The notes: generated by a model not told the origin, from the letters alone. Counted from the first letter of the stretch, positions 17,329-48,947 are shown. The stretch is 64,000 nt of DNA from Escherichia coli (GCF_003018255.1 NZ_CP027440.1); one strand, 5' to 3'. Translations and numbers: made by a program.

Positions 17329-20695
<3,367 letters not shown>

Positions 20696-37074: not shown

Positions 37075-38853
37075 TTATGTGTTTAACAACTCATATTTCT
37101 TAATCTTGCGATAGAGCGTAGCAATGCCGATGCCCAGTTCATCAGCAACTTCCTTCTTGCTGTTATGACGTGAAAGCGCCTCGCGGATCATTTGCTTTTC
37201 CATCTCCTCCAGCGCCGTGCCGCCCGCATCATCGAGTGCCAGGTGCGCCTCACTGACCTCTGTTACATCACTTTGCTCCGTTGTGCCATTATTCAGCAGA
37301 TTTGGCGGCAATAGCGTGCTGTCGATAACTTCACCTGAAGGAACCACGTTAACCAGATATTCCATCAAATTGCTTAACTCGCGCAGGTTTCCGGGCCAAC
37401 GATGCTTACGCAATATTTCGACGACATCGGGAGCAATGCCCGGATAAACCGATCCCAGACGACGGGTATGCAGATGTAAAAAGTAATGCACCAGTAGTTC
37501 AATATCTTCCTGACGTTCACGCAGCGGTGGCAGAGTTATCGGGATAACATTAAGTCGGTAGAAGAGATCTTCGCGGAATTTACCTTCGGAAATGAACTGG
37601 GCCAAATTCTGGTTAGTTGCAGAAATGATGCGAATGTCGACTTGTATTGGGCTACTGGCACCAATCGGCAGAATTTCACGTGCCTCAATAGCGCGCAGTA
37701 ATTTAGCCTGCAACATTAATGGCATATCACCTATTTCATCGAGAAACAGCGTGCCCGTATTCGCCGCCTGAATCAACCCTGTTTTACCGTTGGCAGAAGC
37801 GCCAGTAAATGCGCCTTTAACATAACCGAACAGTTCGCTCTCCAGAAGCTGCTCCGGAATCGCGGCACAGTTGATAGCAATAAAAGGTTTATTCCGTCTT
37901 CCGCTCAACTTATGGATTGCACGGGCGACGACTTCTTTACCCGTGCCGCTTTCGCCAACCACCATAACGCTGGATGGGCTGGGTGCAATACGGCTAATGA
38001 GTCGTTTTAATTGCCGCATAACACGGCACTCGCCAACCAATTGTTCAATATGCGGTTCATCAGGTGCATTTGCTACAGAAAAACTGGTATGCGATTGGTG
38101 AAACGCCATTAAAAATAATTGTCGGCCCTGAATGTTATGCAATTGACCAATGATTAATTCACTTTTATCGTCCCACGAAACAATATGCTGCATATGTCCA
38201 TGGGTAAAATTACTCTCAAATGTTAATGGTCTGAAACGAACAGGTTTCCCAATAATATTATTTTGCACAACACCGAGTGTTTTTAAGGCAGTCTGATTAA
38301 CAAACTGAACCCGATTTTCGTCATCAACAACTAAAACGCCCTGATCCATATTATCGATCATGGTCGCGAATATTTTACTGATGTTATCTCCTGGCCCCTG
38401 ATCCTCCAGAAGTTTCGAAACAAAAATGGTGGATATATGGCGAACGTAATCAGAAAATTCGCGTAAATTATCACTGATATGTTCTTGTTGCTCGTGGGTA
38501 ACGGCAATCAAACTTATCACCCCAACACAACGATCCTGTAAAATGACAGGCGTACCCAGAAATGCTTTTTCGCGGCAATTTTCTTTACTATCGCAACCTT
38601 CACAAAGGGGATCGAAGCGAGACTGTGTCACAACTTTTTCAGTTTTCGTTTCCAGGACGTGGCGGAGCAGGCGTGAGTTGCCGCTCAACTGGCGACCAAG
38701 AAACTTCCCATACGCGCCCGTTCCGGCGACGCGACACAAGTTTTCATCAACGATCTCAACCTCAAGCTGCAAAACGCTGGCAAGCATTCTGGCAAAACGC
38801 TGAATTGTCGGTTGAATTTGCATCAATACTGACTGCGTAGTAGCAAGCTCCAT
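37075..38853 (-). CDS. ygeV: Sigma-54-dependent transcriptional activator (bacterial enhancer-binding protein)
   Basis: 592 aa; AAA+ Walker A GESGTGKE, the sigma-54 contact motif GAFTGA, C-terminal HTH, N-terminal sensory domain. Confidence 0.92.
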   Translation of the reverse strand: MELATTQSVLMQIQPTIQRFARMLASVLQLEVEIVDENLCRVAGTGAYGKFLGRQLSGNSRLLRHVLETKTEKVVTQSRFDPLCEGCDSKENCREKAFLGTPVILQDRCVGVISLIAVTHEQQEHISDNLREFSDYVRHISTIFVSKLLEDQGPGDNISKIFATMIDNMDQGVLVVDDENRVQFVNQTALKTLGVVQNNIIGKPVRFRPLTFESNFTHGHMQHIVSWDDKSELIIGQLHNIQGRQLFLMAFHQSHTSFSVANAPDEPHIEQLVGECRVMRQLKRLISRIAPSPSSVMVVGESGTGKEVVARAIHKLSGRRNKPFIAINCAAIPEQLLESELFGYVKGAFTGASANGKTGLIQAANTGTLFLDEIGDMPLMLQAKLLRAIEAREILPIGASSPIQVDIRIISATNQNLAQFISEGKFREDLFYRLNVIPITLPPLRERQEDIELLVHYFLHLHTRRLGSVYPGIAPDVVEILRKHRWPGNLRELSNLMEYLVNVVPSGEVIDSTLLPPNLLNNGTTEQSDVTEVSEAHLALDDAGGTALEEMEKQMIREALSRHNSKKEVADELGIGIATLYRKIKKYELLNT

Positions 38854-39222
38854 AGCTTTACCTTCCAGACTTACTTAAAAGTCGATCATTGAAGACGTTG
38901 ATGGTTCATAGATCATGATGATATTAACTCAGGCGAAATTGGCTTTGATAAAAACATAAGATTTTTATCACTTTCTAATGAAATTATGGAAGAGATATCA
39001 CATTTCTATATCAATATGAGAATTACGGCGGTGAGTTTATCAAACTGAAGAGAGATCGCCTGTCCCTTTATCTTATTTCTGATACTTAGCAGCAAATAAA
39101 TAACGCGATAAAAAAAGCCAAACGTTTTCGTATTTTACAAACAACCAGAAGCTGGCATCAATTTGTGATCAACCCCACACATTATCCGTCAAATTAGTCT
39201 TTTGCAGCCCCGTGGATAATTC

Positions 39223-39237
39223 TGGCACACTTATTGT
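39223..39237 (+). promoter_or_regulatory. Candidate sigma-54 promoter upstream of ygeW (weak -12 element)
   Basis: TGGCAC-ACTTA-TTGT has the correct -24 element and spacing but GT instead of GC at -12; about 92 bp upstream of ygeW. Confidence 0.3.
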
Positions 39238-39328
39238 TAGTCCCAGGTATAGCTGTGAAAACACCAATCACGTTGGCAAGTCACAGTGAAATAAACCACT
39301 TTGCCTGTCATTCCACTACCGGGACTTT

Positions 39329-40519
39329 ATGATGAAAACTGTTAATGAGCTGATTAAGGATATCAATTCGCTGACCTCTCACCTTCACGAGAAAGATTTT
39401 TTGTTAACGTGGGAACAGACGCCAGATGAACTGAAACAAGTACTGGACGTTGCCGCAGCATTAAAAGCACTGCGTGCTGAAAACATCTCAACCAAAGTCT
39501 TTAATAGTGGATTAGGTATTTCCGTATTCCGCGACAACTCCACCCGTACCCGCTTCTCTTATGCTTCCGCGCTTAACCTGCTCGGCCTTGCACAGCAAGA
39601 TCTCGACGAAGGCAAATCACAAATCGCTCACGGCGAAACCGTGCGTGAAACCGCCAATATGATCTCCTTCTGCGCCGACGCTATTGGTATTCGCGACGAT
39701 ATGTATCTGGGCGCAGGCAACGCCTATATGCGTGAAGTTGGCGCTGCACTTGATGACGGTTACAAGCAGGGTGTGCTGCCGCAACGTCCGGCTTTAGTGA
39801 ACCTGCAATGCGATATTGACCACCCGACTCAGTCAATGGCTGACCTGGCATGGTTACGTGAACACTTTGGTTCACTGGAAAACCTGAAAGGTAAAAAAAT
39901 CGCCATGACCTGGGCCTACTCCCCAAGCTATGGCAAACCGCTCTCTGTACCACAAGGCATCATCGGTCTGATGACTCGCTTCGGTATGGATGTCACCCTG
40001 GCCCATCCGGAAGGCTACGACCTGATCCCGGATGTCGTTGAAGTCGCTAAAAACAATGCTAAAGCCTCCGGCGGTAGCTTCCGTCAGGTCACCAGCATGG
40101 AAGAAGCCTTCAAAGACGCAGACATCGTTTATCCGAAGTCATGGGCACCTTACAAAGTGATGGAAGAGCGTACTGAATTGCTGCGTGCGAACGATCACGA
40201 AGGCTTAAAAGCACTGGAAAAACAGTGTCTGGCACAGAACGCGCAACACAAAGACTGGCATTGTACTGAAGAGATGATGGAACTGACCCGTGATGGCGAA
40301 GCCCTGTACATGCACTGCCTGCCAGCTGATATCAGCGGCGTATCCTGCAAAGAAGGTGAAGTGACTGAAGGCGTATTCGAAAAATACCGTATCGCTACCT
40401 ACAAAGAAGCCAGCTGGAAGCCTTATATCATCGCCGCGATGATCCTGTCCCGTAAATACGCCAAACCAGGTGCACTGCTCGAGCAACTGCTGAAAGAAGC
40501 GCAAGAACGCGTGAAATAA
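39329..40519 (+). CDS. ygeW: Carbamoyltransferase (OTC/ATC superfamily, non-canonical substrate)
   Basis: 396 aa with the carbamoyl-phosphate-binding STRTR motif (FRDNSTRTRFSYA). Confidence 0.9.
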   Translation: MMKTVNELIKDINSLTSHLHEKDFLLTWEQTPDELKQVLDVAAALKALRAENISTKVFNSGLGISVFRDNSTRTRFSYASALNLLGLAQQDLDEGKSQIAHGETVRETANMISFCADAIGIRDDMYLGAGNAYMREVGAALDDGYKQGVLPQRPALVNLQCDIDHPTQSMADLAWLREHFGSLENLKGKKIAMTWAYSPSYGKPLSVPQGIIGLMTRFGMDVTLAHPEGYDLIPDVVEVAKNNAKASGGSFRQVTSMEEAFKDADIVYPKSWAPYKVMEERTELLRANDHEGLKALEKQCLAQNAQHKDWHCTEEMMELTRDGEALYMHCLPADISGVSCKEGEVTEGVFEKYRIATYKEASWKPYIIAAMILSRKYAKPGALLEQLLKEAQERVK

Positions 40520-40576
40520 CCCCTCGGGCCGATCAGCTGGTCGGCCCTCTATTTCCAGAGGCCAAAAGGATAGGAT

Positions 40577-41773
40577 ATGTCCGTTTTCTCATTGAAGATT
40601 GATATCGCCGATAACAAATTTTTCAACGGCGAAACATCACCGCTTTTTTCGCAAAGCCAGGCAAAACTGGCACGCCAGTTCCACCAGAAAATTGCTGGTT
40701 ATCACCCAACACCGCTTTGTGCGCTGGACGATCTCGCAAACCTGTTTGGTGTAAAGAAAATTCTCGTCAAAGACGAATCAAAACGATTCGGTCTGAACGC
40801 CTTCAAAATGCTTGGCGGTGCGTACGCCATCGCTCAATTATTGTGTGAAAAATATCATCTTGATATCGAAACGCTGTCATTTGAGCACCTGAAAAATGCC
40901 ATCGGCGAAAAAATGACTTTCGCGACTACCACCGACGGCAACCACGGGCGCGGTGTGGCATGGGCAGCACAGCAACTCGGACAGAATGCGGTGATTTACA
41001 TGCCGAAAGGTTCTGCTCAGGAACGCGTTGACGCCATTCTAAACCTCGGTGCCGAGTGCATCGTCACGGATATGAACTATGACGATACCGTTCGCCTGAC
41101 CATGCAACACGCGCAGCAGCACGGCTGGGAAGTGGTACAGGACACGGCATGGGAAGGTTACACCAAAATCCCAACCTGGATCATGCAAGGCTACGCAACA
41201 CTGGCGGATGAAGCCGTCGAGCAAATGCGTGAAATGGGCGTCACCCCGACACACGTTCTGCTGCAAGCCGGTGTCGGTGCAATGGCCGGTGGTGTGCTGG
41301 GTTATCTGGTCGACGTCTATAGCCCGCAAAATCTGCACAGCATTATTGTTGAACCTGACAAAGCTGACTGTATTTATCGCTCCGGCGTCAAAGGCGACAT
41401 CGTCAACGTTGGCGGTGATATGGCCACCATCATGGCGGGCCTGGCCTGCGGCGAACCTAACCCACTGGGCTGGGAAATCCTACGTAACTGCGCCACCCAA
41501 TTCATCTCCTGCCAGGACAGCGTTGCCGCATTAGGTATGCGCGTGCTGGGTAATCCGTATGGCAACGACCCGCGCATCATCTCCGGTGAATCCGGCGCTG
41601 TCGGTTTGGGCGTTCTCGCAGCGGTTCATTATCACCCGCAACGTCAAAGCCTGATGGAAAAACTGGCGCTGAACAAAGATGCCGTGGTGCTGGTTATCAG
41701 CACTGAAGGCGACACCGACGTGAAGCACTACCGCGAAGTTGTCTGGGAAGGCAAACACGCTGTAGCACCTTAA
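40577..41773 (+). CDS. ygeX: PLP-dependent diaminopropionate ammonia-lyase
   Basis: 398-aa ORF of the Trp-synthase-beta-like PLP enzyme fold, assigned by recognition and position. Confidence 0.88.
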   Translation: MSVFSLKIDIADNKFFNGETSPLFSQSQAKLARQFHQKIAGYHPTPLCALDDLANLFGVKKILVKDESKRFGLNAFKMLGGAYAIAQLLCEKYHLDIETLSFEHLKNAIGEKMTFATTTDGNHGRGVAWAAQQLGQNAVIYMPKGSAQERVDAILNLGAECIVTDMNYDDTVRLTMQHAQQHGWEVVQDTAWEGYTKIPTWIMQGYATLADEAVEQMREMGVTPTHVLLQAGVGAMAGGVLGYLVDVYSPQNLHSIIVEPDKADCIYRSGVKGDIVNVGGDMATIMAGLACGEPNPLGWEILRNCATQFISCQDSVAALGMRVLGNPYGNDPRIISGESGAVGLGVLAAVHYHPQRQSLMEKLALNKDAVVLVISTEGDTDVKHYREVVWEGKHAVAP

Positions 41774-41830
41774 TCACCCTATTGGAACTGCTCCCTGCAA
41801 AACGGGGAGTAAAAAATCTGGAGAAAAATA

Positions 41831-43042
41831 ATGGCTAAGAATATTCCATTCAAACTGATTCTTGAAAAAGCAAAAGATTACCAGGCAGACATGACTCGCT
41901 TCCTGCGCGATATGGTTGCTATTCCCAGTGAAAGCTGCGACGAGAAACGCGTAGTACATCGTATTAAAGAAGAGATGGAAAAAGTCGGCTTCGATAAAGT
42001 TGAAATCGACCCGATGGGCAACGTTCTCGGTTATATCGGCCACGGCCCGCGTCTGGTGGCAATGGACGCTCATATCGATACCGTCGGCATTGGCAACATC
42101 AAAAACTGGGACTTCGATCCGTACGAAGGCATGGAAACTGATGAGCTGATCGGTGGTCGCGGTACTTCCGACCAGGAAGGCGGCATGGCATCTATGGTTT
42201 ATGCCGGTAAAATCATTAAAGACCTCGGTCTGGAAGATGAATATACCCTGCTGGTTACCGGTACTGTGCAGGAAGAAGACTGCGACGGCCTGTGCTGGCA
42301 GTACATTATTGAACAATCCGGCATTCGCCCGGAATTTGTGGTCAGTACCGAACCAACCGACTGCCAGGTATACCGTGGTCAGCGCGGTCGTATGGAAATT
42401 CGTATTGATGTTCAGGGTGTGAGCTGCCACGGTTCTGCACCAGAACGCGGTGACAACGCCATTTTCAAAATGGGTCCGATTCTTGGCGAATTACAAGAAC
42501 TCTCCCAACGTCTGGGTTATGACGAATTCCTCGGCAAAGGCACCCTCACCGTTTCTGAAATCTTCTTCACATCCCCAAGCCGTTGCGCTGTAGCAGATAG
42601 CTGCGCCGTCTCTATTGACCGCCGTCTGACCTGGGGCGAAACCTGGGAAGGCGCGCTGGACGAAATCCGCGCCCTGCCTGCAGTACAGAAAGCTAACGCG
42701 GTTGTTTCTATGTACAACTACGACCGTCCGTCCTGGACTGGCCTGGTTTACCCAACCGAATGCTACTTCCCGACCTGGAAAGTGGAAGAAGATCACTTCA
42801 CCGTTAAAGCACTGGTGAATGCCTACGAAGGTCTGTTTGGCAAAGCGCCGGTTGTTGATAAGTGGACCTTCTCAACTAACGGCGTATCTATCATGGGCCG
42901 TCACGGCATTCCGGTGATCGGCTTTGGCCCGGGTAAAGAACCTGAAGCGCATGCACCTAACGAAAAAACCTGGAAATCTCACCTGGTGACCTGTGCCGCG
43001 ATGTACGCTGCAATCCCGTTAAGCTGGCTGGCAACCGAATAA
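41831..43042 (+). CDS. ygeY: M20-family metallopeptidase / deacylase (ArgE/DapE-like)
   Basis: 403-aa ORF of the M20 peptidase family, assigned by recognition and position. Confidence 0.88.
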
Positions 43043-43058
43043 TTACTCTTCACTTATT

Positions 43059-43084
43059 CCCCTCCGGTTCGCCGGAGGGTTTTT
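43059..43084 (+). terminator. Intra-cluster terminator or attenuator between ygeY and hyuA
   Basis: Hairpin CCCCTCCGG-ttcg-CCGGAGGG followed by TTTTT. Confidence 0.6.
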
Positions 43085-43094
43085 GGAGTTTGCT

Positions 43095-44480
43095 ATGCGC
43101 GTATTGATCAAAAACGGCACTGTCGTTAACGCAGATGGACAAGCCAAACAAGATTTGCTGATTGAGAGCGGGATTGTTCGCCAATTGGGCAGCAATATTT
43201 CGCCGCAGGTCCCGTATGAAGAAATTGATGCCACTGGCTGTTACGTTTTCCCTGGCGGCGTGGATGTCCATACGCATTTCAATATTGATGTCGGCATCGC
43301 GCGCAGTTGTGATGATTTTTTTACCGGTACCCGCGCAGCTGCGTGTGGCGGTACAACAACCATTATTGACCATATGGGATTTGGCCCGAATGGCTGCCGG
43401 TTACGCCATCAACTGGAAGTTTATCGCGGTTATGCCGCCCACAAAGCAGTCATCGACTACAGCTTTCACGGTGTCATTCAACATATCAATCACGCTATCC
43501 TCGACGAAATTCCGATGATGGTTGAGGAAGGACTGAGCAGTTTTAAACTCTATTTAACCTATCAATATAAACTCAACGATGATGAAGTGTTGCAGGCATT
43601 ACGCCGCTTGCATGAATCCGGCGCGCTGACCACCGTGCACCCGGAAAATGACGCAGCTATCGCCAGCAAGCGGGCGGAGTTTATCGCCGCAGGGTTAACC
43701 GCGCCGCGTTATCATGCCTTGAGTCGACCTCTGGAATGCGAAGCGGAAGCCATCGCCCGCATGATTAACCTGGCACAAATTGCCGGTAACGCCCCGCTCT
43801 ATATCGTGCACCTGTCTAACGGCTTAGGTCTGGATTATCTGCGTCTTGCCCGTGCGAATCACCAGCCAGTCTGGGTTGAAACCTGCCCACAATATCTCCT
43901 GTTGGACGAACGCAGTTACGATACAGAAGATGGCATGAAGTTCATTCTTAGCCCACCGCTGCGTAACGTACGCGAGCAGGACAAACTGTGGTGTGGCATC
44001 AGCGATGGTGCGATTGACGTGGTAGCGACCGATCACTGCACATTCTCGATGGCTCAACGCCTGCAAATTTCTAAAGGCGATTTCAGTCGCTGCCCAAATG
44101 GCTTACCCGGTGTGGAAAACCGCATGCAGTTACTGTTTTCCAGTGGCGTTATGACGGGACGTATAACACCGGAACGTTTTGTTGAATTAACCAGCGCGAT
44201 GCCCGCCAGGCTGTTTGGCCTGTGGCCGCAAAAAGGATTATTAGCGCCCGGTTCCGATGGCGACGTGGTGATTATCGACCCACGTCAGAGTCAACAAATT
44301 CAGCATCGCCATCTCCACGACAACGCCGACTACTCGCCATGGGAGGGTTTTACCTGTCAGGGCGCGATTGTCAGAACTTTATCCCGTGGTGAAACGATTT
44401 TCTGTGACGGCACCTTTACAGGCAAAGCCGGGCGAGGTCGTTTCCTGCGACGCAAACCGTTTGTCCCTCCCGTGCTCTAA
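43095..44480 (+). CDS. hyuA: D-phenylhydantoinase-type cyclic amidohydrolase
   Basis: Start MRVLIKNG gives 461 aa; amidohydrolase metal-binding motif GGVDVHTH. Confidence 0.9.
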   Translation: MRVLIKNGTVVNADGQAKQDLLIESGIVRQLGSNISPQVPYEEIDATGCYVFPGGVDVHTHFNIDVGIARSCDDFFTGTRAAACGGTTTIIDHMGFGPNGCRLRHQLEVYRGYAAHKAVIDYSFHGVIQHINHAILDEIPMMVEEGLSSFKLYLTYQYKLNDDEVLQALRRLHESGALTTVHPENDAAIASKRAEFIAAGLTAPRYHALSRPLECEAEAIARMINLAQIAGNAPLYIVHLSNGLGLDYLRLARANHQPVWVETCPQYLLLDERSYDTEDGMKFILSPPLRNVREQDKLWCGISDGAIDVVATDHCTFSMAQRLQISKGDFSRCPNGLPGVENRMQLLFSSGVMTGRITPERFVELTSAMPARLFGLWPQKGLLAPGSDGDVVIIDPRQSQQIQHRHLHDNADYSPWEGFTCQGAIVRTLSRGETIFCDGTFTGKAGRGRFLRRKPFVPPVL

Positions 44481-44527
44481 CCACTGCCAGGGATCTATAC
44501 ACAATCAAGAATGATGAGTGAGGAAAA

Positions 44528-45460
44528 ATGAGTAAGAAAATTGTTCTCGCCCTGGGCGGGAATGCGCTGGGCGATGACCTGGCCGGACAAATGAAAGCGG
44601 TAAAAATTACTTCTCAGGCAATTGTTGATTTAATTGCCCAGGGACATGAAGTTATCGTCACTCACGGTAACGGGCCACAGGTGGGCATGATTAACCAGGC
44701 CTTTGAAGCTGCCGCAAAAACTGAAGCGCACTCGCCAATGCTGCCGATGTCTGTCTGTGTTGCCTTAAGCCAGGGTTATATTGGTTACGATCTACAAAAC
44801 GCATTAAGAGAAGAACTGCTTTCTCGTGGCATTAATAAACCTGTAGCAACGCTGGTTACCCAGGTCGAAGTCGATGCTAACGACCCGGCATTCCTCAACC
44901 CGACCAAGCCGATCGGTTCGTTCTTTACCGAGCAGGAAGCAGAGCAACTGACAAAACAGGGTTACACTCTGAAAGAAGATGCTGGTCGCGGCTATCGCCG
45001 TGTTGTTGCCTCGCCGAAACCGGTTGATATTATTGAAAAAGAGACGGTAAAAGCGCTGGTAGAAGCAGGCCAGGTAGTGATCACCGTTGGCGGTGGTGGC
45101 ATTCCCGTTATTCGTGAAGGGAACCATCTGCGCGGTGCCAGTGCGGTTATCGATAAAGACTGGGCCAGCGCCCGTTTAGCAGAAATGATTGATGCCGATA
45201 TGCTGATCATTCTGACTGCGGTAGAAAAAGTGGCCATTAACTTCGGTAAAGAGAATGAACAGTGGCTCGATCGCCTGTCATTAAGTGATGCTGAACGCTT
45301 TATCGAAGAAGGTCATTTTGCGAAAGGTTCTATGCTGCCTAAAGTGGAAGCTGCCGCCTCGTTTGCTCGCTCTCGCGCAGGTCGTGAAGCACTGATTACC
45401 GTATTGAGCAAAGCGAAAGAAGGGATTGAAGGCAAAACCGGAACGGTGATTTGTCAGTAA
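44528..45460 (+). CDS. yqeA: Carbamate kinase-like protein
   Basis: 310 aa; amino-acid-kinase family N-terminus KIVLALGGNAL. Confidence 0.9.
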   Translation: MSKKIVLALGGNALGDDLAGQMKAVKITSQAIVDLIAQGHEVIVTHGNGPQVGMINQAFEAAAKTEAHSPMLPMSVCVALSQGYIGYDLQNALREELLSRGINKPVATLVTQVEVDANDPAFLNPTKPIGSFFTEQEAEQLTKQGYTLKEDAGRGYRRVVASPKPVDIIEKETVKALVEAGQVVITVGGGGIPVIREGNHLRGASAVIDKDWASARLAEMIDADMLIILTAVEKVAINFGKENEQWLDRLSLSDAERFIEEGHFAKGSMLPKVEAAASFARSRAGREALITVLSKAKEGIEGKTGTVICQ

Positions 45461-45466
45461 TTTAAA

Positions 45467-45502
45467 GGCCGGGTGGGTAATACCATCCGGCCATTTTCAT
45501 TT
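45467..45502. terminator. Bidirectional terminator between convergent yqeA and yqeB
   Basis: Hairpin GGCCGGGTGG ... CCATCCGGCC followed by ATTTTCATTT. Confidence 0.6.
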
Positions 45503-47126
45503 AAGCCACTTCCAGCACTTCTTTCGTCGCTTTAACGCCCTGATGCATCAACATCATTAACGCCTCAAGTACGCCGCCGCCAATCGCCCGGGCTTTATCA
45601 GAAACGCTGGTGAAATCAGCCGTTTCACCACGAGGATCGATATCACCAATTTTAAAACCACCGACCACTGCCAGTCCGTCGTTCAACAAGCCACGCACCA
45701 TCCCCGTCAACGGTGCTTTAATTTCATGCTCACCAATCCAGGCAATCACATCGCCCTCTTTCACCAGATCGCCTAATTTCACGTTGGATCGCATAATGCC
45801 TGCAGCAGGAGCACGGATCACCCGTCGGGTGGTATGCCCCATAATATTGCCAGGAACACCGGTATTCTCCTGCGCACAACCAGAGTAAATCACCTGACCG
45901 AGCCAGTGCCCGCGATTTGTTTCAATTACCGCATGACAATCCTTCCCTGCAGTAAAGCCCGGCCCAAGCGCGATTGTTACTGGTGCCATATCTGCCCGCG
46001 TCCCCAAATTCTGTTTCGCCAGAATAGCGTCCACCACGCAAAGCGGTTTCAGTTCATCAAGCAATGAACAGGCGGGATCTACTATCACAGGGATGAATCC
46101 GCATTCGGTAAGTTTCATCGCCTCCGCAGAGCTGGTTGCCAGGCGGGCGGTGACGCCTTCGACCGTCATTTCGCCATCGAACACGGCCTGGGCAAATGCC
46201 ACGGTACAACGAATCACTGTCGGTTTTTCCACTTCCAGCATGATCACTTTAAAACCCGCATGATACAGACGTAGCGCTACACCACTGGCGATATCCCCCG
46301 CACCACGAATCACCACCAGCTGGTGTCCGGAAGGATGAGAAGGCTTCATCATCAGCCCACCCGGCGCGTTATTTTTCACCTGTAATATTTCTGCCAGCAC
46401 GCTGATGGCGATCTCCTGCGGCGTTTCCGCACCTATGTTGTAACCAACGGGCGCATGTAAACGGGCAATATGTTCTTCAGCCACGCCTTTCTCACGCAAT
46501 TGGCGCAGGAAAAGCTGAACCTTGCGGCGACTTGCCAGCAACCCCAGCCATGCAATGGGTTGTTCAATGAGTTTGTCGAGGGCTTCACGATCCTGATTAT
46601 TCGTGGCAATCAGGACAAAATTATCAGGGCGAATATCCAGTGCTTCCACTGCCGCACCAAACGACTCAGCATGGAGAAGCGTGGTTGATGGTGGGAATAG
46701 TTCAGGATTGAGGCTTTCGCGATAAATATCGGCAACGGCGATATCAAATCCTAATAGCGCCGCACTCTGGGCTATCGCCCGGTTGACATGCCCCGCGCCA
46801 ATCAACACCAGACGTGGACGCATACCATGGACGCTGATAAATACTGACATTGCACCTCCACAATCTGACCCGACAGCATCCGCACCGTTACGAGCCATAC
46901 GTCCATGGAATAATCGCGGCTTACGTTCCTGCAATGCCTGAAGCGACTCTTCAATCACCTTCCGCTCAACCATTCCGCCACCAATTGTACCGACGATAGA
47001 GCCATCGGCGCGCACTAACATTTGTGCAGAATGGCGGGGGGTTGAGCCTCGGCTATCAACAATTTGCGCCATCGCAAACGGACAATTTTGCTCTTCGAGT
47101 TTTGCAGCCTCTGTGAAAATATTCAT
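45501..47126 (-). CDS. yqeB: YqeB-family accessory protein of selenium-dependent molybdenum hydroxylases (XdhC/CoxI-like)
   Basis: 541 aa with XdhC/CoxI-like and Rossmann-like regions (LIGAGHV). Confidence 0.85.
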   Translation of the reverse strand: MNIFTEAAKLEEQNCPFAMAQIVDSRGSTPRHSAQMLVRADGSIVGTIGGGMVERKVIEESLQALQERKPRLFHGRMARNGADAVGSDCGGAMSVFISVHGMRPRLVLIGAGHVNRAIAQSAALLGFDIAVADIYRESLNPELFPPSTTLLHAESFGAAVEALDIRPDNFVLIATNNQDREALDKLIEQPIAWLGLLASRRKVQLFLRQLREKGVAEEHIARLHAPVGYNIGAETPQEIAISVLAEILQVKNNAPGGLMMKPSHPSGHQLVVIRGAGDIASGVALRLYHAGFKVIMLEVEKPTVIRCTVAFAQAVFDGEMTVEGVTARLATSSAEAMKLTECGFIPVIVDPACSLLDELKPLCVVDAILAKQNLGTRADMAPVTIALGPGFTAGKDCHAVIETNRGHWLGQVIYSGCAQENTGVPGNIMGHTTRRVIRAPAAGIMRSNVKLGDLVKEGDVIAWIGEHEIKAPLTGMVRGLLNDGLAVVGGFKIGDIDPRGETADFTSVSDKARAIGGGVLEALMMLMHQGVKATKEVLEVA

Positions 47127-48850: not shown

Positions 48851-48866
48851 TGGCAAGAGTGGTGCG
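48851..48866 (+). promoter_or_regulatory. Candidate sigma-54 promoter upstream of ygfK
   Basis: TGGCAA-GAGTG-GTGCG with GG-N10-GC spacing, about 83 bp upstream of ygfK. Confidence 0.35.
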
Positions 48867-48947
48867 ATTGTTGCTCTATCCCCCTAAACCACCGGATTTC
48901 TCAACACCGGTCACTCAATGATATCTGTATAAGCTAAGGAGAGGGTT

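What the first reader, a model, noticed from the sequence alone, without database searches (positions are those of the whole stretch)
39329..45502. ygeW-ygeX-ygeY-hyuA-yqeA block resembles a carbamoyl-phosphate ATP-harvesting route
A same-strand block of carbamoyltransferase (STRTR motif), ammonia-lyase, M20 deacylase, hydantoinase-type amidohydrolase and carbamate kinase ends at a bidirectional terminator. The combination mirrors fermentative pathways in which a ureido or carbamoyl intermediate is phosphorolysed to carbamoyl phosphate and ATP is made by carbamate kinase. The native substrate of YgeW is not evident from the sequence. A hairpin plus T5 between ygeY and hyuA suggests internal attenuation.
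Basis: inference. Interest (0 to 1): 0.58.

Follow-up and report, generated by a model that had tools for sequence, protein, structure and literature searches.

The report
E. coli urate-degradation operon, ATP-yielding branch
This is the well-conserved E. coli ygeW-ygeX-ygeY-hyuA-yqeA block.

Summary
Five same-strand genes lie at 39332-45460: YgeW carbamoyltransferase with STRTR, diaminopropionate ammonia-lyase, YgeY M20 hydrolase, D-hydantoinase HyuA and carbamate kinase YqeA. A GC hairpin plus T5 sits at 43060-43084, and another hairpin sits between the convergent stops at 45467-45492.

HyuA opens ureidomethyl-hydantoin to 2,3-diureidopropanoate. YgeW phosphorolyses one ureido group to carbamoyl phosphate, and YqeA turns that into ATP. 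YgeY removes the second ureido group, and YgeX gives pyruvate (bioRxiv 10.1101/2025.04.24.650524; PMC12507026).

What I add concerns the operon's layout:
- A σ54 -24/-12 element (39223-39238) is conserved upstream of ygeW in about 40 genera.
- The ygeY/hyuA hairpin, and a second unreported one after ygeW (40526-40547), are kept by compensatory substitutions across Enterobacterales.
- The T-run after the ygeY/hyuA hairpin is not conserved, and no competing structure exists.

The hairpin is therefore most likely a leaky terminator or an mRNA-stability element that tunes gene dosage, not a regulated attenuator. No transcript-end data exist. Novelty: already known. Interest is low.

The parts
37075..38853 (-). 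ygeV, a σ54-dependent transcriptional activator (bacterial enhancer-binding protein) transcribed divergently from ygeW
   Evidence: The ORF is and the σ54-interaction domain matches are. RefSeq annotates it as such. The literature treats YgeV as activator of the purine/urate regulon (PMC10602906).
38946..39047 (.). Conserved upstream blocks rich in TGATA/TATCA, which are candidate YgeV binding sites. They are the inverted repeat TGATAAAAA-N7-TTTTTATCA (38946-38970), a block at 38982-39022 and a block at 39037-39047.
   Evidence: The invariant columns come from the 18-genus alignment A2. Assigning them to YgeV is inference only.
39164..39179 (.). CRP-like site TGTGA-N6-CCACA
   Evidence: Read from the sequence. 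GTGA and CA are invariant in A2. The full TGTGA-N6-YMACA pattern occurs only in E. coli and Citrobacter amalonaticus. Li et al. state that a native Crp site lies in this spacer and that glucose represses the pathway.
39223..39238 (+). σ54 -24/-12 promoter element TGGCACACTTATTGTT, with an unusual -12 GT
   Evidence: It has one mismatch to the consensus. TGGCAY-N5-TTGT is conserved about 82-125 nt upstream of ygeW in 40 of 75 loci (one outlier at 227 nt), including all Enterobacteriaceae, Morganella, Hafnia, three of four Edwardsiella and two of three Buttiauxella loci. A gSELEX RpoN site maps to the ygeV/ygeW spacer (PMC8743547).
39332..40519 (+). ygeW, a knotted catabolic carbamoyltransferase. 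It converts 2,3-diureidopropanoate plus Pi to carbamoyl phosphate plus a mono-ureido-aminopropanoate.
   Evidence: NF005538 scores 825 bits. STRTR and HCLP are present. It matches PDB 3Q98 at E = 3e-269.
40526..40547 (+). Intercistronic hairpin GGGCCGATC-AGCT-GGTCGGCCC after ygeW, with a poor T tail
   Evidence: Found. A stable hairpin occurs at this position in 66 of 71 loci, with median z = -3.15. On alignment A4, 91% of cells are paired, and pair 16-31 is C-G in 13 genera and U-A in 11.
40577..41773 (+). ygeX/dpaL, a PLP-dependent 2,3-diaminopropionate ammonia-lyase that yields pyruvate and 2 NH3
   Evidence: TIGR03528 scores 651 bits. Its role in the pathway is described.
41789..41811 (+). 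Weaker intercistronic hairpin after ygeX, followed by an A-run
   Evidence: Centroid energy is -14 kcal/mol with z = -2.3. It is less conserved, at 47 of 73 loci with median z = -2.1.
41831..43042 (+). ygeY, an M20 (ArgE/DapE-type) hydrolase that removes the remaining ureido group to give 2,3-diaminopropanoate
   Evidence: TIGR03526 scores 722 bits. No close solved structure exists.
43060..43084 (+). Hairpin CCCTCCGG-TTCG-CCGGAGGG plus T5, with the hyuA Shine-Dalgarno GGAG (43085-43088) immediately after. It is probably a leaky intrinsic terminator or an mRNA-stability element.
   Evidence: Found. A stable hairpin occurs at this position in 73 of 76 loci, with median z = -3.9. Six of 9 pairs show double-sided changes. 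The T tail is conserved in only a minority (26 of 73, d > 0 in 13 of 59). The stem is invariant in sampled E. coli including K-12. No competing structure exists.
43095..44480 (+). hyuA, a D-hydantoinase-type cyclic amidohydrolase that opens ureidomethyl-hydantoin to 2,3-diureidopropanoate, the substrate of YgeW
   Evidence: TIGR02033 scores 675 bits. It matches PDB D-hydantoinases at about 1e-109.
44528..45460 (+). yqeA/arcC, a carbamate kinase that converts carbamoyl phosphate plus ADP to ATP, NH3 and CO2
   Evidence: TIGR00746 scores 386 bits. It matches PDB 1B7B at 3e-90.
45467..45492 (.). Hairpin between the convergent stops of yqeA and yqeB, a candidate bidirectional terminator
   Evidence: Found. 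Energies are -22.6 kcal/mol (+ strand, z = -6.2) and -16.7 kcal/mol (- strand, z = -3.5). The T tails are weak, with d = +1.5 and -9.4.

Best explanation
The block is the ygeW-dpaL(ygeX)-ygeY-hyuA-arcC(yqeA) unit of the E. coli anaerobic urate cluster. It encodes the last four steps of the reductive '2,8-dioxopurine' pathway plus the step that conserves energy.

Steps shown in the literature:
1. HyuA hydrolyses the hydantoin ring of ureidomethyl-hydantoin, which XdhD-YgfM, YgfK and SsnA make from urate further along the window. The product is 2,3-diureidopropanoate.
2. YgeW uses phosphate to split off one ureido group as carbamoyl phosphate.
3. YqeA transfers that phosphate to ADP, giving one ATP per urate.
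4. YgeY hydrolyses the second ureido group to give 2,3-diaminopropanoate.
5. YgeX converts this to pyruvate and ammonia.

Steps inferred here:
- Transcription starts at a σ54 promoter (39223-39238) activated by the divergently encoded YgeV, with a CRP-like site upstream.
- It runs through all five genes to the hairpin at 45467-45492.
- Stem-loops after ygeW and after ygeY, conserved by compensatory substitution, act constitutively. In E. coli the second one carries a T5 and probably terminates a fraction of transcripts. More generally the stem-loops probably act as 3' decay barriers. Either way the promoter-proximal genes would be expressed more strongly than hyuA and yqeA, without uncoupling them.
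For: Family assignment: all five proteins score above curated cut-offs. YgeW matches PDB 3Q98 and YqeA matches solved carbamate kinases.

Biochemistry and genetics from the literature:
- ATP forms only with YgeW plus YqeA plus 2,3-diureidopropanoate.
- Cleavage by YgeW depends on phosphate, and YgeY plus YgeX yield pyruvate.
- The pathway was reconstituted stepwise.
- A deletion of ygeW through arcC cannot grow anaerobically on urate or adenine.

Context: the rest of the pathway (ygfK, ssnA, ygfM, xdhD, the transporters and yqeB/yqeC) is in the window, collinear with an annotated genome.

One unit rather than two:
- The gene order ygeV(-)/ygeW-X-Y-hyuA-yqeA is conserved in Enterobacterales, Aeromonas, Shewanella and Vibrionaceae.
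- No promoter-like site lies near hyuA, and the 52-nt spacer is filled by the hairpin and the Shine-Dalgarno sequence.
- hyuA sits with ygeW, ygeX and ygeY in the YgeV co-expression module.
- HyuA makes the substrate of YgeW, so the two are needed together.

Promoter: the σ54 element is conserved and a gSELEX RpoN site maps to this spacer.

Hairpins are selected as structures. The E. coli site is terminator-like, with d of about +29. The stem is invariant within sampled E. coli.
Against: No transcript map exists for this locus. Published Term-seq tables hold no 3' ends here, and the RNA-seq figure of the promoter-insertion strain could not be read. Co-transcription and the size of any read-through are therefore inferred.

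Databases and one paper speak of a 'ygeWXY operon', which would fit a stop at the hairpin. yqeA is not listed in the YgeV module.

The two pathway papers disagree on which ureido group YgeW removes: the 3-ureido group or the 2-ureido group giving albizziin. A commentary flags this as open.

The terminator score uses a formula recalled from memory.
Confidence: 0.9

Rival explanations
1. There are two independent transcription units. ygeWXY ends at an efficient intrinsic terminator at 43060-43084, and hyuA-yqeA is transcribed from its own promoter inside ygeY.
For: The E. coli hairpin plus T5 scores as the most terminator-like site in the block, with d about +29 against +1.5 for the end-of-block hairpin. 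The literature and databases refer to a 'ygeWXY operon'. In vivo studies list ygeW and ygeY but not hyuA or yqeA among the strongest responders.
Against: No σ70- or σ54-like site lies within several hundred bases upstream of hyuA. The spacer is only 52 nt. In most related genera the orthologous hairpin has almost no T-run (13 of 59 with d > 0), yet hyuA-yqeA still follow directly. hyuA co-varies with ygeW, ygeX and ygeY across 1035 RNA-seq samples. Other authors treat ygeW through arcC as one operon.
Confidence: 0.12
2. The hairpins are not terminators at all. They are post-transcriptional elements, either 3' stem-loops that block exonucleases after endonucleolytic cleavage or a structured insulator just 5' of the hyuA ribosome-binding site. 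They would set different mRNA half-lives or translation rates for the cistrons.
For: The structure is conserved with compensatory changes while the T-run is not. In Enterobacteriaceae the stem starts 8-17 nt after the ygeY stop, and the Shine-Dalgarno sequence follows directly after it. The hairpin after ygeW has no usable T tail in most genera (d > 0 in 4 of 64).
Against: In E. coli, Morganella and a few other genera a run of about five T's follows the stem, so some termination is expected there. No processing or half-life data exist. The two mechanisms do not exclude each other.
Confidence: 0.4
3. The hairpin plus T5 is a regulated attenuator: a riboswitch, a leader-peptide system or a protein-dependent antiterminator that senses a pathway metabolite.
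For: The only support is the position of a terminator-like site in the middle of the operon.
Against: Nothing in Rfam matched at E up to 1. No alternative structure competes with the stem in a 171-nt fold, where both the MFE and the centroid keep the hairpin. No other inverted repeat overlaps the stem. The stop codon of ygeY lies 17 nt upstream, too far for a terminating ribosome to melt the stem. The flanking sequence is not conserved.
Confidence: 0.04
4. The block serves another pathway: oxalurate/oxamate phosphorolysis in allantoin fermentation, or D-hydantoin/D-amino-acid conversion with diaminopropionate detoxification, as older annotations suggested.
For: HyuA was first described as a D-phenylhydantoinase and YgeX as a stand-alone diaminopropionate ammonia-lyase (annotation). 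YgeW was once predicted to be oxamate transcarbamylase.
Against: [quoted passage not shown] An allB mutant still uses urate, while the ygeW-arcC mutant still uses allantoin. The urate pathway was reconstituted with these very proteins.
Confidence: 0.02

Closest known systems
2,8-dioxopurine / reductive uric acid degradation pathway of gut bacteria (Liu et al. 2025 preprint; Li et al. 2025, Life Metab)
   Same: These are the same genes in the same organism. The window's proteins carry the RefSeq accessions used for E. coli, and every family model is met. The enzyme order HyuA, YgeW (+YqeA), YgeY, YgeX matches.
   Different: Nothing differs at the protein level. The papers do not describe the σ54 promoter, the conserved intercistronic hairpins or the transcript structure. 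They also disagree on whether YgeW removes the 3- or the 2-ureido group.
Arginine deiminase pathway (ArcA, catabolic ornithine carbamoyltransferase ArcB, carbamate kinase ArcC)
   Same: A carbamoyltransferase of the ATCase/OTCase superfamily runs in the phosphorolytic direction and is pulled by a carbamate kinase that makes ATP. YqeA meets the arcC equivalog model. The authors draw the same analogy.
   Different: The carbamoyl donor is 2,3-diureidopropanoate from urate, not citrulline. YgeW belongs to a separate knotted clade and scores far below the OTCase cut-offs (133 against 281 bits).
Agmatine deiminase / putrescine carbamoyltransferase route, and ureidoglycine carbamoyltransferase of Rubrobacter (Barba et al. 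2013)
   Same: They share the logic of a ureido compound plus Pi giving carbamoyl phosphate and then ATP. The Rubrobacter enzyme also acts in purine catabolism next to a carbamate kinase.
   Different: The substrates differ (carbamoylputrescine, allantoate), as do the carbamoyltransferase clades. YgeW scores 108 against a cut-off of 500 for the putrescine carbamoyltransferase model.
Anaerobic allantoin pathway of E. coli: oxamate transcarbamylase AllFGH plus carbamate kinase AllK/YbcF
   Same: It occurs in the same organism and also harvests ATP from a purine-derived ureido compound through carbamoyl phosphate.
   Different: AllFGH is unrelated to the ATCase/OTCase fold. The pathway is genetically distinct, because allB and ygeW-arcC mutants have non-overlapping phenotypes.
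Leaky intra-operon intrinsic terminators and intercistronic stabilising stem-loops (for example the malE-malF REP and puf operon hairpins; recalled from general knowledge)
   Same: A GC-rich stem-loop sits between cistrons of one operon, placed shortly after a stop codon. In some genera it carries a short U-run.
   Different: No termination or half-life measurement exists for this locus. The stems are not REP elements and are locus-specific. Conservation of the structure across genera was shown here, but its function was not.

Membership tests
Knotted carbamoyltransferase YgeW (NF005538 / TIGR03316) | Whole-protein score above the curated equivalog cut-off | tested here: met
   825.2 bits against a cut-off of 453, and 675.5 against 500
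Knotted carbamoyltransferase YgeW (NF005538 / TIGR03316) | Carbamoyl-phosphate binding motifs of the transcarbamylase superfamily (S-T-R-T-R and H-x-L-P) | tested here: met
   DNSTRTRFS and MHCLPAD are present in the translation
Knotted carbamoyltransferase YgeW (NF005538 / TIGR03316) | Near-identity to the solved E. coli YgeW structure | tested here: met
   PDB 3Q98, E = 2.9e-269 over residues 1-395
Knotted carbamoyltransferase YgeW (NF005538 / TIGR03316) | Phosphorolysis of 2,3-diureidopropanoate to carbamoyl phosphate | not testable with these tools
   Shown for the E. coli protein in the literature. The regiochemistry is disputed.
Carbamate kinase (TIGR00746 arcC) | Score above the equivalog cut-off and homology to solved carbamate kinases | tested here: met
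   386.1 bits against a cut-off of 358.25. PDB 1B7B at 3e-90.
Diaminopropionate ammonia-lyase (TIGR03528) | Score above the equivalog cut-off | tested here: met
   650.8 bits against a cut-off of 532.25
YgeY family selenium-metabolism-linked M20 hydrolase (TIGR03526) | Score above the cut-off, and genomic linkage to yqeB/yqeC and a selenium-dependent molybdenum hydroxylase | tested here: met
   721.6 bits against a cut-off of 321.5. yqeB, yqeC and xdhD lie in the same window.
D-hydantoinase / dihydropyrimidinase (TIGR02033) | Score above the equivalog cut-off | tested here: met
   674.7 bits against a cut-off of 393.25. PDB D-hydantoinases at about 1e-109.
2,8-dioxopurine (reductive urate) gene cluster | [quoted passage not shown] | tested here: met
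   All are present in window 33372-63819, collinear with an annotated E. coli genome at 99.3% identity
σ54-dependent promoter | GG at -24 and GC at -12, spaced as in TGGCAC-N5-TTGC, plus a nearby enhancer-binding-protein gene | tested here: inconclusive
   The element reads TGGCAC-N5-TTGT, so -12 is GT rather than GC. That variant is itself conserved in 40 loci. ygeV lies adjacent, and RpoN binds in the spacer in vitro according to the literature. The transcription start has not been mapped.
Rho-independent (intrinsic) terminator | GC-rich stem-loop | tested here: met
   8 bp, 7 of them G-C, with a UUCG loop, -15.6 to -16.6 kcal/mol
Rho-independent (intrinsic) terminator | U-rich tract of about 7-9 nt directly after the stem | tested here: inconclusive
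   E. coli has only U5 followed by GGAG. Most orthologous sites lack a T-rich tail: 26 of 73 stable hairpins have at least 4 T in the next 8 nt, and d > 0 in 13 of 59.
Rho-independent (intrinsic) terminator | RNA 3' ends mapped at the U-tract | not testable with these tools
   There is no entry for these genes in the published Term-seq supplements, and the operon is silent under standard culture conditions

The most novel reading that the evidence does not exclude
The stem-loops after ygeW and after ygeY are kept by compensatory substitutions from Escherichia to Morganella and Edwardsiella. Analogous stable hairpins occur in the same spacers in Aeromonas and Vibrionaceae. They may form a conserved post-transcriptional dosage system: partial termination where a U-run is present, and a decay barrier or processing site elsewhere. 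Such a system would fix the stoichiometry of the five enzymes, for instance by keeping HyuA and the carbamate kinase below YgeW, YgeX and YgeY. This layer of control has not been described for the urate operon, and it matters for engineering uricolytic probiotics.
Probability: 0.4. Interest if true: 0.3.

Novelty: already known. Interest (0 to 1): 0.15.

Why it matters
The pathway itself matters. It lets gut bacteria dispose of host urate, gives them ATP and a fitness advantage, and is being engineered into probiotic E. coli against hyperuricaemia and gout. All of that was published in 2022-2025, so this finding adds no new biology at the pathway level.

The small new piece is the transcript architecture. 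It consists of a conserved σ54 promoter with an unusual -12 GT, plus structure-conserved intercistronic hairpins. One of these looks like a leaky terminator in E. coli, directly upstream of hyuA and yqeA.

If that hairpin limits HyuA and carbamate-kinase levels, it could be a bottleneck in strains such as CBT2.0, which overexpress the cluster from a single promoter inserted upstream of ygeW. The open question of which ureido group YgeW removes also remains worth settling.

Tried and rejected
- RNAalifold on a MAFFT alignment of the ygeY/hyuA spacers predicted no structure. The cause was arms aligned one column out of register, for example in the E. coli row. I replaced this with per-locus shuffle z-scores and explicit pair counts.
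- An Rfam scan of 38500-46000 at E up to 1 found nothing.
- I looked for mapped RNA 3' ends. The supplements of Adams et al. 2021 hold no entry for ygeW, ygeX, ygeY, hyuA or yqeA. No supplements are held for Dar and Sorek 2018.
- I tried to read which genes rise in the promoter-insertion strain CBT2.0. Only the figure legend is held, not the data.
- I considered translational coupling, with the hyuA GGAG pairing to ACUCU just after the ygeY stop. The outer helix adds only about 1.8 kcal/mol, is absent from the centroid, and I did not test it for covariation. I did not adopt it.
- I considered a regulated attenuator and rejected it.
- Oxamate as the YgeW substrate is rejected from the literature.
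- I did not build a covariance model or predict any structure. The proteins are already solved or assigned, and the pair counts were sufficient.

Full report
**What is in the sequence**

The window is E. coli chromosome. The 6.2-kb stretch 39329-45502 is found whole in 5161 of 5426 complete E. coli genomes at 95-99.7% identity. From base 19328 onward the window is collinear, at 99.3% identity, with an annotated genome.

Five same-strand ORFs fill the stretch. Each passes the curated NCBIfam cut-off for its family:
- YgeW knotted carbamoyltransferase (825 bits against 453)
- diaminopropionate ammonia-lyase YgeX/DpaL (651 against 532)
- YgeY M20 hydrolase (722 against 321)
- D-hydantoinase HyuA (675 against 393)
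- carbamate kinase YqeA/ArcC (386 against 358)

YgeW carries STRTR and HCLP and matches the protein of PDB 3Q98. YqeA resembles solved carbamate kinases, and HyuA resembles solved D-hydantoinases. YgeY has no close solved relative.

A 10-bp hairpin lies between the convergent stops of yqeA and yqeB at 45467-45492 and folds on both strands.

There are minor corrections. ygeW most likely starts at 39332. hyuA starts at ATG 43095, behind GGAG, not at the TTG inside the T-run.

**What it is**

The literature answers the main question.
- Kasahara et al. [quoted passage not shown] Anaerobic growth on urate and adenine was lost, but growth on allantoin was not. They already called the YgeW/carbamate kinase pair 'presumably required for ATP synthesis'.
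- Liu et al. (10.1101/2025.04.24.650524) and Li et al. (PMC12507026) then reconstituted the pathway with the E. coli proteins.

The reconstituted route runs as follows:
1. Urate is reduced by XdhD-YgfM to 2,8-dioxopurine.
2. YgfK and SsnA convert this to ureidomethyl-hydantoin.
3. HyuA opens the hydantoin ring to give 2,3-diureidopropanoate.
4. YgeW plus phosphate removes one ureido group.
5. YgeY hydrolyses the other ureido group to give 2,3-diaminopropanoate.
6. YgeX gives pyruvate and ammonia.

ATP was produced only when YgeW, YqeA, ADP/Mg and 2,3-diureidopropanoate were combined. All the upstream genes are in this window.

The idea goes back to the 2011 YgeW structure paper ('knotted ancestral catabolic transcarbamylase') and to the synteny analysis of Barba et al. 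2013. [quoted passage not shown]

One biochemical point remains open in the literature. Liu et al. have YgeW removing the 3-ureido group, whereas Li et al. have it removing the 2-ureido group to give albizziin. A commentary notes the discrepancy. I could not resolve it with the tools available.

**The part not covered by the literature: transcript architecture**

I collected 80 loci from other species using YgeY as the query and mapped the genes by tblastn. The order ygeV(-)/ygeW-ygeX-ygeY-hyuA-yqeA holds throughout Enterobacterales, Aeromonas, Shewanella and Vibrionaceae.

*Promoter.* A σ54 -24/-12 element, TGGCACACTTATTGTT (39223-39238), lies 109 nt before the ygeW ATG.
- The motif TGGCAY-N5-TTGT, including the unusual -12 GT, is present about 82-125 nt upstream of ygeW in 40 of 75 loci, with one outlier at 227 nt. 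These include every member of the Enterobacteriaceae, both Morganella species and Hafnia, plus three of four Edwardsiella and two of three Buttiauxella loci.
- In an 18-genus alignment the motif is invariant. Also conserved there are a CRP-like site (39164-39179) and TGATA/TATCA-rich blocks further upstream (38946-39047), which are candidate YgeV sites.
- This agrees with an in vitro RpoN binding site in this spacer, with the YgeV co-expression module, and with the Crp site and glucose repression mentioned by Li et al..
- Similar σ54-type elements precede xdhA (33302) and ygfK (48860).

*Hairpins.* Three of the four internal spacers carry stem-loops in E. coli. Across loci, the results by spacer were:

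| Spacer | Loci with a stable local hairpin | Median z for a perfect-stem hairpin against dinucleotide shuffles | Loci with no more than 1 of 100 shuffles as stable |
|---|---|---|---|
| ygeW/ygeX | 66 of 71 | -3.15 | 64% |
| ygeX/ygeY | 47 of 73 | -2.1 | 31% |
| ygeY/hyuA | 73 of 76 | -3.9 | 74% |
| hyuA/yqeA | 34 of 75 | -0.8 | 16% |

The hyuA/yqeA spacer serves as an internal control.

The stems differ in sequence between genera while staying complementary. On alignments made by sequence alone:
- The ygeY/hyuA stem has 6 of 9 pairs with changes on both sides. It is 83.5% paired, against 75% in shuffles and 42-63% when the partner columns are slid.
- The ygeW/ygeX stem is 91% paired. One pair is C-G in 13 genera and U-A in 11.

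The structures are therefore under selection.

*The T-run is not conserved.* In most Enterobacteriaceae the ygeY/hyuA stem is followed by TCTGGAG or a similar sequence, which is the hyuA Shine-Dalgarno sequence directly. Only 26 of the 73 stable hairpins have at least four T in the next eight bases.

I applied a classical hairpin/T-tail discriminant, with the formula recalled from d'Aubenton-Carafa 1990. The E. coli site scores +29, the most terminator-like site in the block. Only 13 of 59 orthologous sites score above zero.

Within E. coli the stem is invariant in the strains sampled, including a K-12 derivative. One strain has T4, and one has a loop change.

No alternative structure competes with the stem, and nothing in Rfam matches.

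**Mechanism proposed**

- Shown in the literature: the enzymology and the dependence of urate growth on the block.
- Inferred here: a single YgeV/σ54 promoter drives all five genes.
- Also inferred here: the stem-loops act constitutively. In E. coli the one before hyuA probably terminates part of the transcripts. In general they probably protect upstream message from 3' decay. Either way the promoter-proximal genes would be expressed more strongly than hyuA and yqeA.

Complete uncoupling is unlikely for four reasons. HyuA makes the substrate of YgeW. No promoter-like site precedes hyuA. hyuA co-varies with ygeW, ygeX and ygeY across 1035 RNA-seq samples. The five genes also stay adjacent in genera whose hairpin lacks a T-run.

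Some observations would fit a drop in expression after ygeY, but they are not diagnostic. The literature uses the term 'ygeWXY operon'. yqeA is absent from the YgeV module list. Two in vivo studies list ygeW and ygeY but not hyuA or yqeA among their top responders.

No transcript-end data exist, so the size of any attenuation is unknown.

**Verdict**

The attenuation sub-claim is plausible for E. coli, is not a regulated switch, and remains untested.

My contribution is limited to three results: the conserved σ54 element, structure-conserved hairpins after ygeW and after ygeY, and the finding that the T-run is peculiar to a minority of lineages that includes E. coli.

Noticed in passing
window 33302-33316 (+) and 48860-48874 (+): σ54-type -24/-12 matches (TGGCGTAAATCTTGC and TGGTGCGATTGTTGC) lie about 70 nt upstream of xdhA and about 88 nt upstream of ygfK. 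All three plus-strand operons of the urate cluster therefore carry such an element.
   Followed up: partly
window 40526-40547 and 41789-41811: Two more intercistronic hairpins, after ygeW and after ygeX, were not mentioned in the finding. The first is conserved with compensatory changes across genera.
   Followed up: yes
L061, L064, L066-L073, L077-L081 (Shewanella, Photobacterium, Vibrio, Ferrimonas), yqeA position: The gene after hyuA matches YqeA at only about 40% identity over about 220-240 residues. These lineages seem to carry a divergent carbamate-kinase-like protein in this position.
   Followed up: no
L049, L056, L059, L074, L076 (betaproteobacterial genomes): ygeW is followed directly by ygeY with no ygeX between them. 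In L074 and L076 yqeA follows ygeY without hyuA.
   Followed up: no
window 39329-45502: Only 6 of 5178 matching E. coli genomes are at least 99% identical to this block, so the window comes from an uncommon lineage. One of the 5686 matching places is on a plasmid.
   Followed up: no
L083 (E. coli MRY15-131) and L084 (E. coli GCU-H1), equivalent to window 43060-43084: Natural variants of the hairpin region exist: T4 instead of T5 in one strain and loop TTCG changed to TTCA in another. The stem is unchanged. The T4 strain would be a natural test of termination efficiency.
   Followed up: partly
L037 (Serratia sp. H1w), L041 and L043, ygeY/hyuA spacer: L037 has a 19-bp perfect stem (-43 kcal/mol) in a 135-nt spacer. 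L041 and L043 have spacers of 330-363 nt. These may be inserted repeat elements.
   Followed up: no
window 38946-39047: TGATA/TATCA-rich blocks, including the perfect inverted repeat TGATAAAAA-N7-TTTTTATCA, are conserved upstream of the σ54 promoter in 18 genera. They are candidate YgeV enhancer sites with no experimental assignment that I could find.
   Followed up: partly
window 42964-42970 and 43078-43084: AAAAACC inside ygeY is exactly complementary to GGTTTTT at the 3' edge of the hairpin and its T-run, and the two pair in the MFE fold of the longer RNA. This is probably chance.
   Followed up: no
literature, not the window: The two 2025 pathway papers assign opposite regiochemistry to YgeW: 3-ureido cleavage against 2-ureido cleavage giving albizziin. 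A commentary lists this as unresolved.
   Followed up: partly
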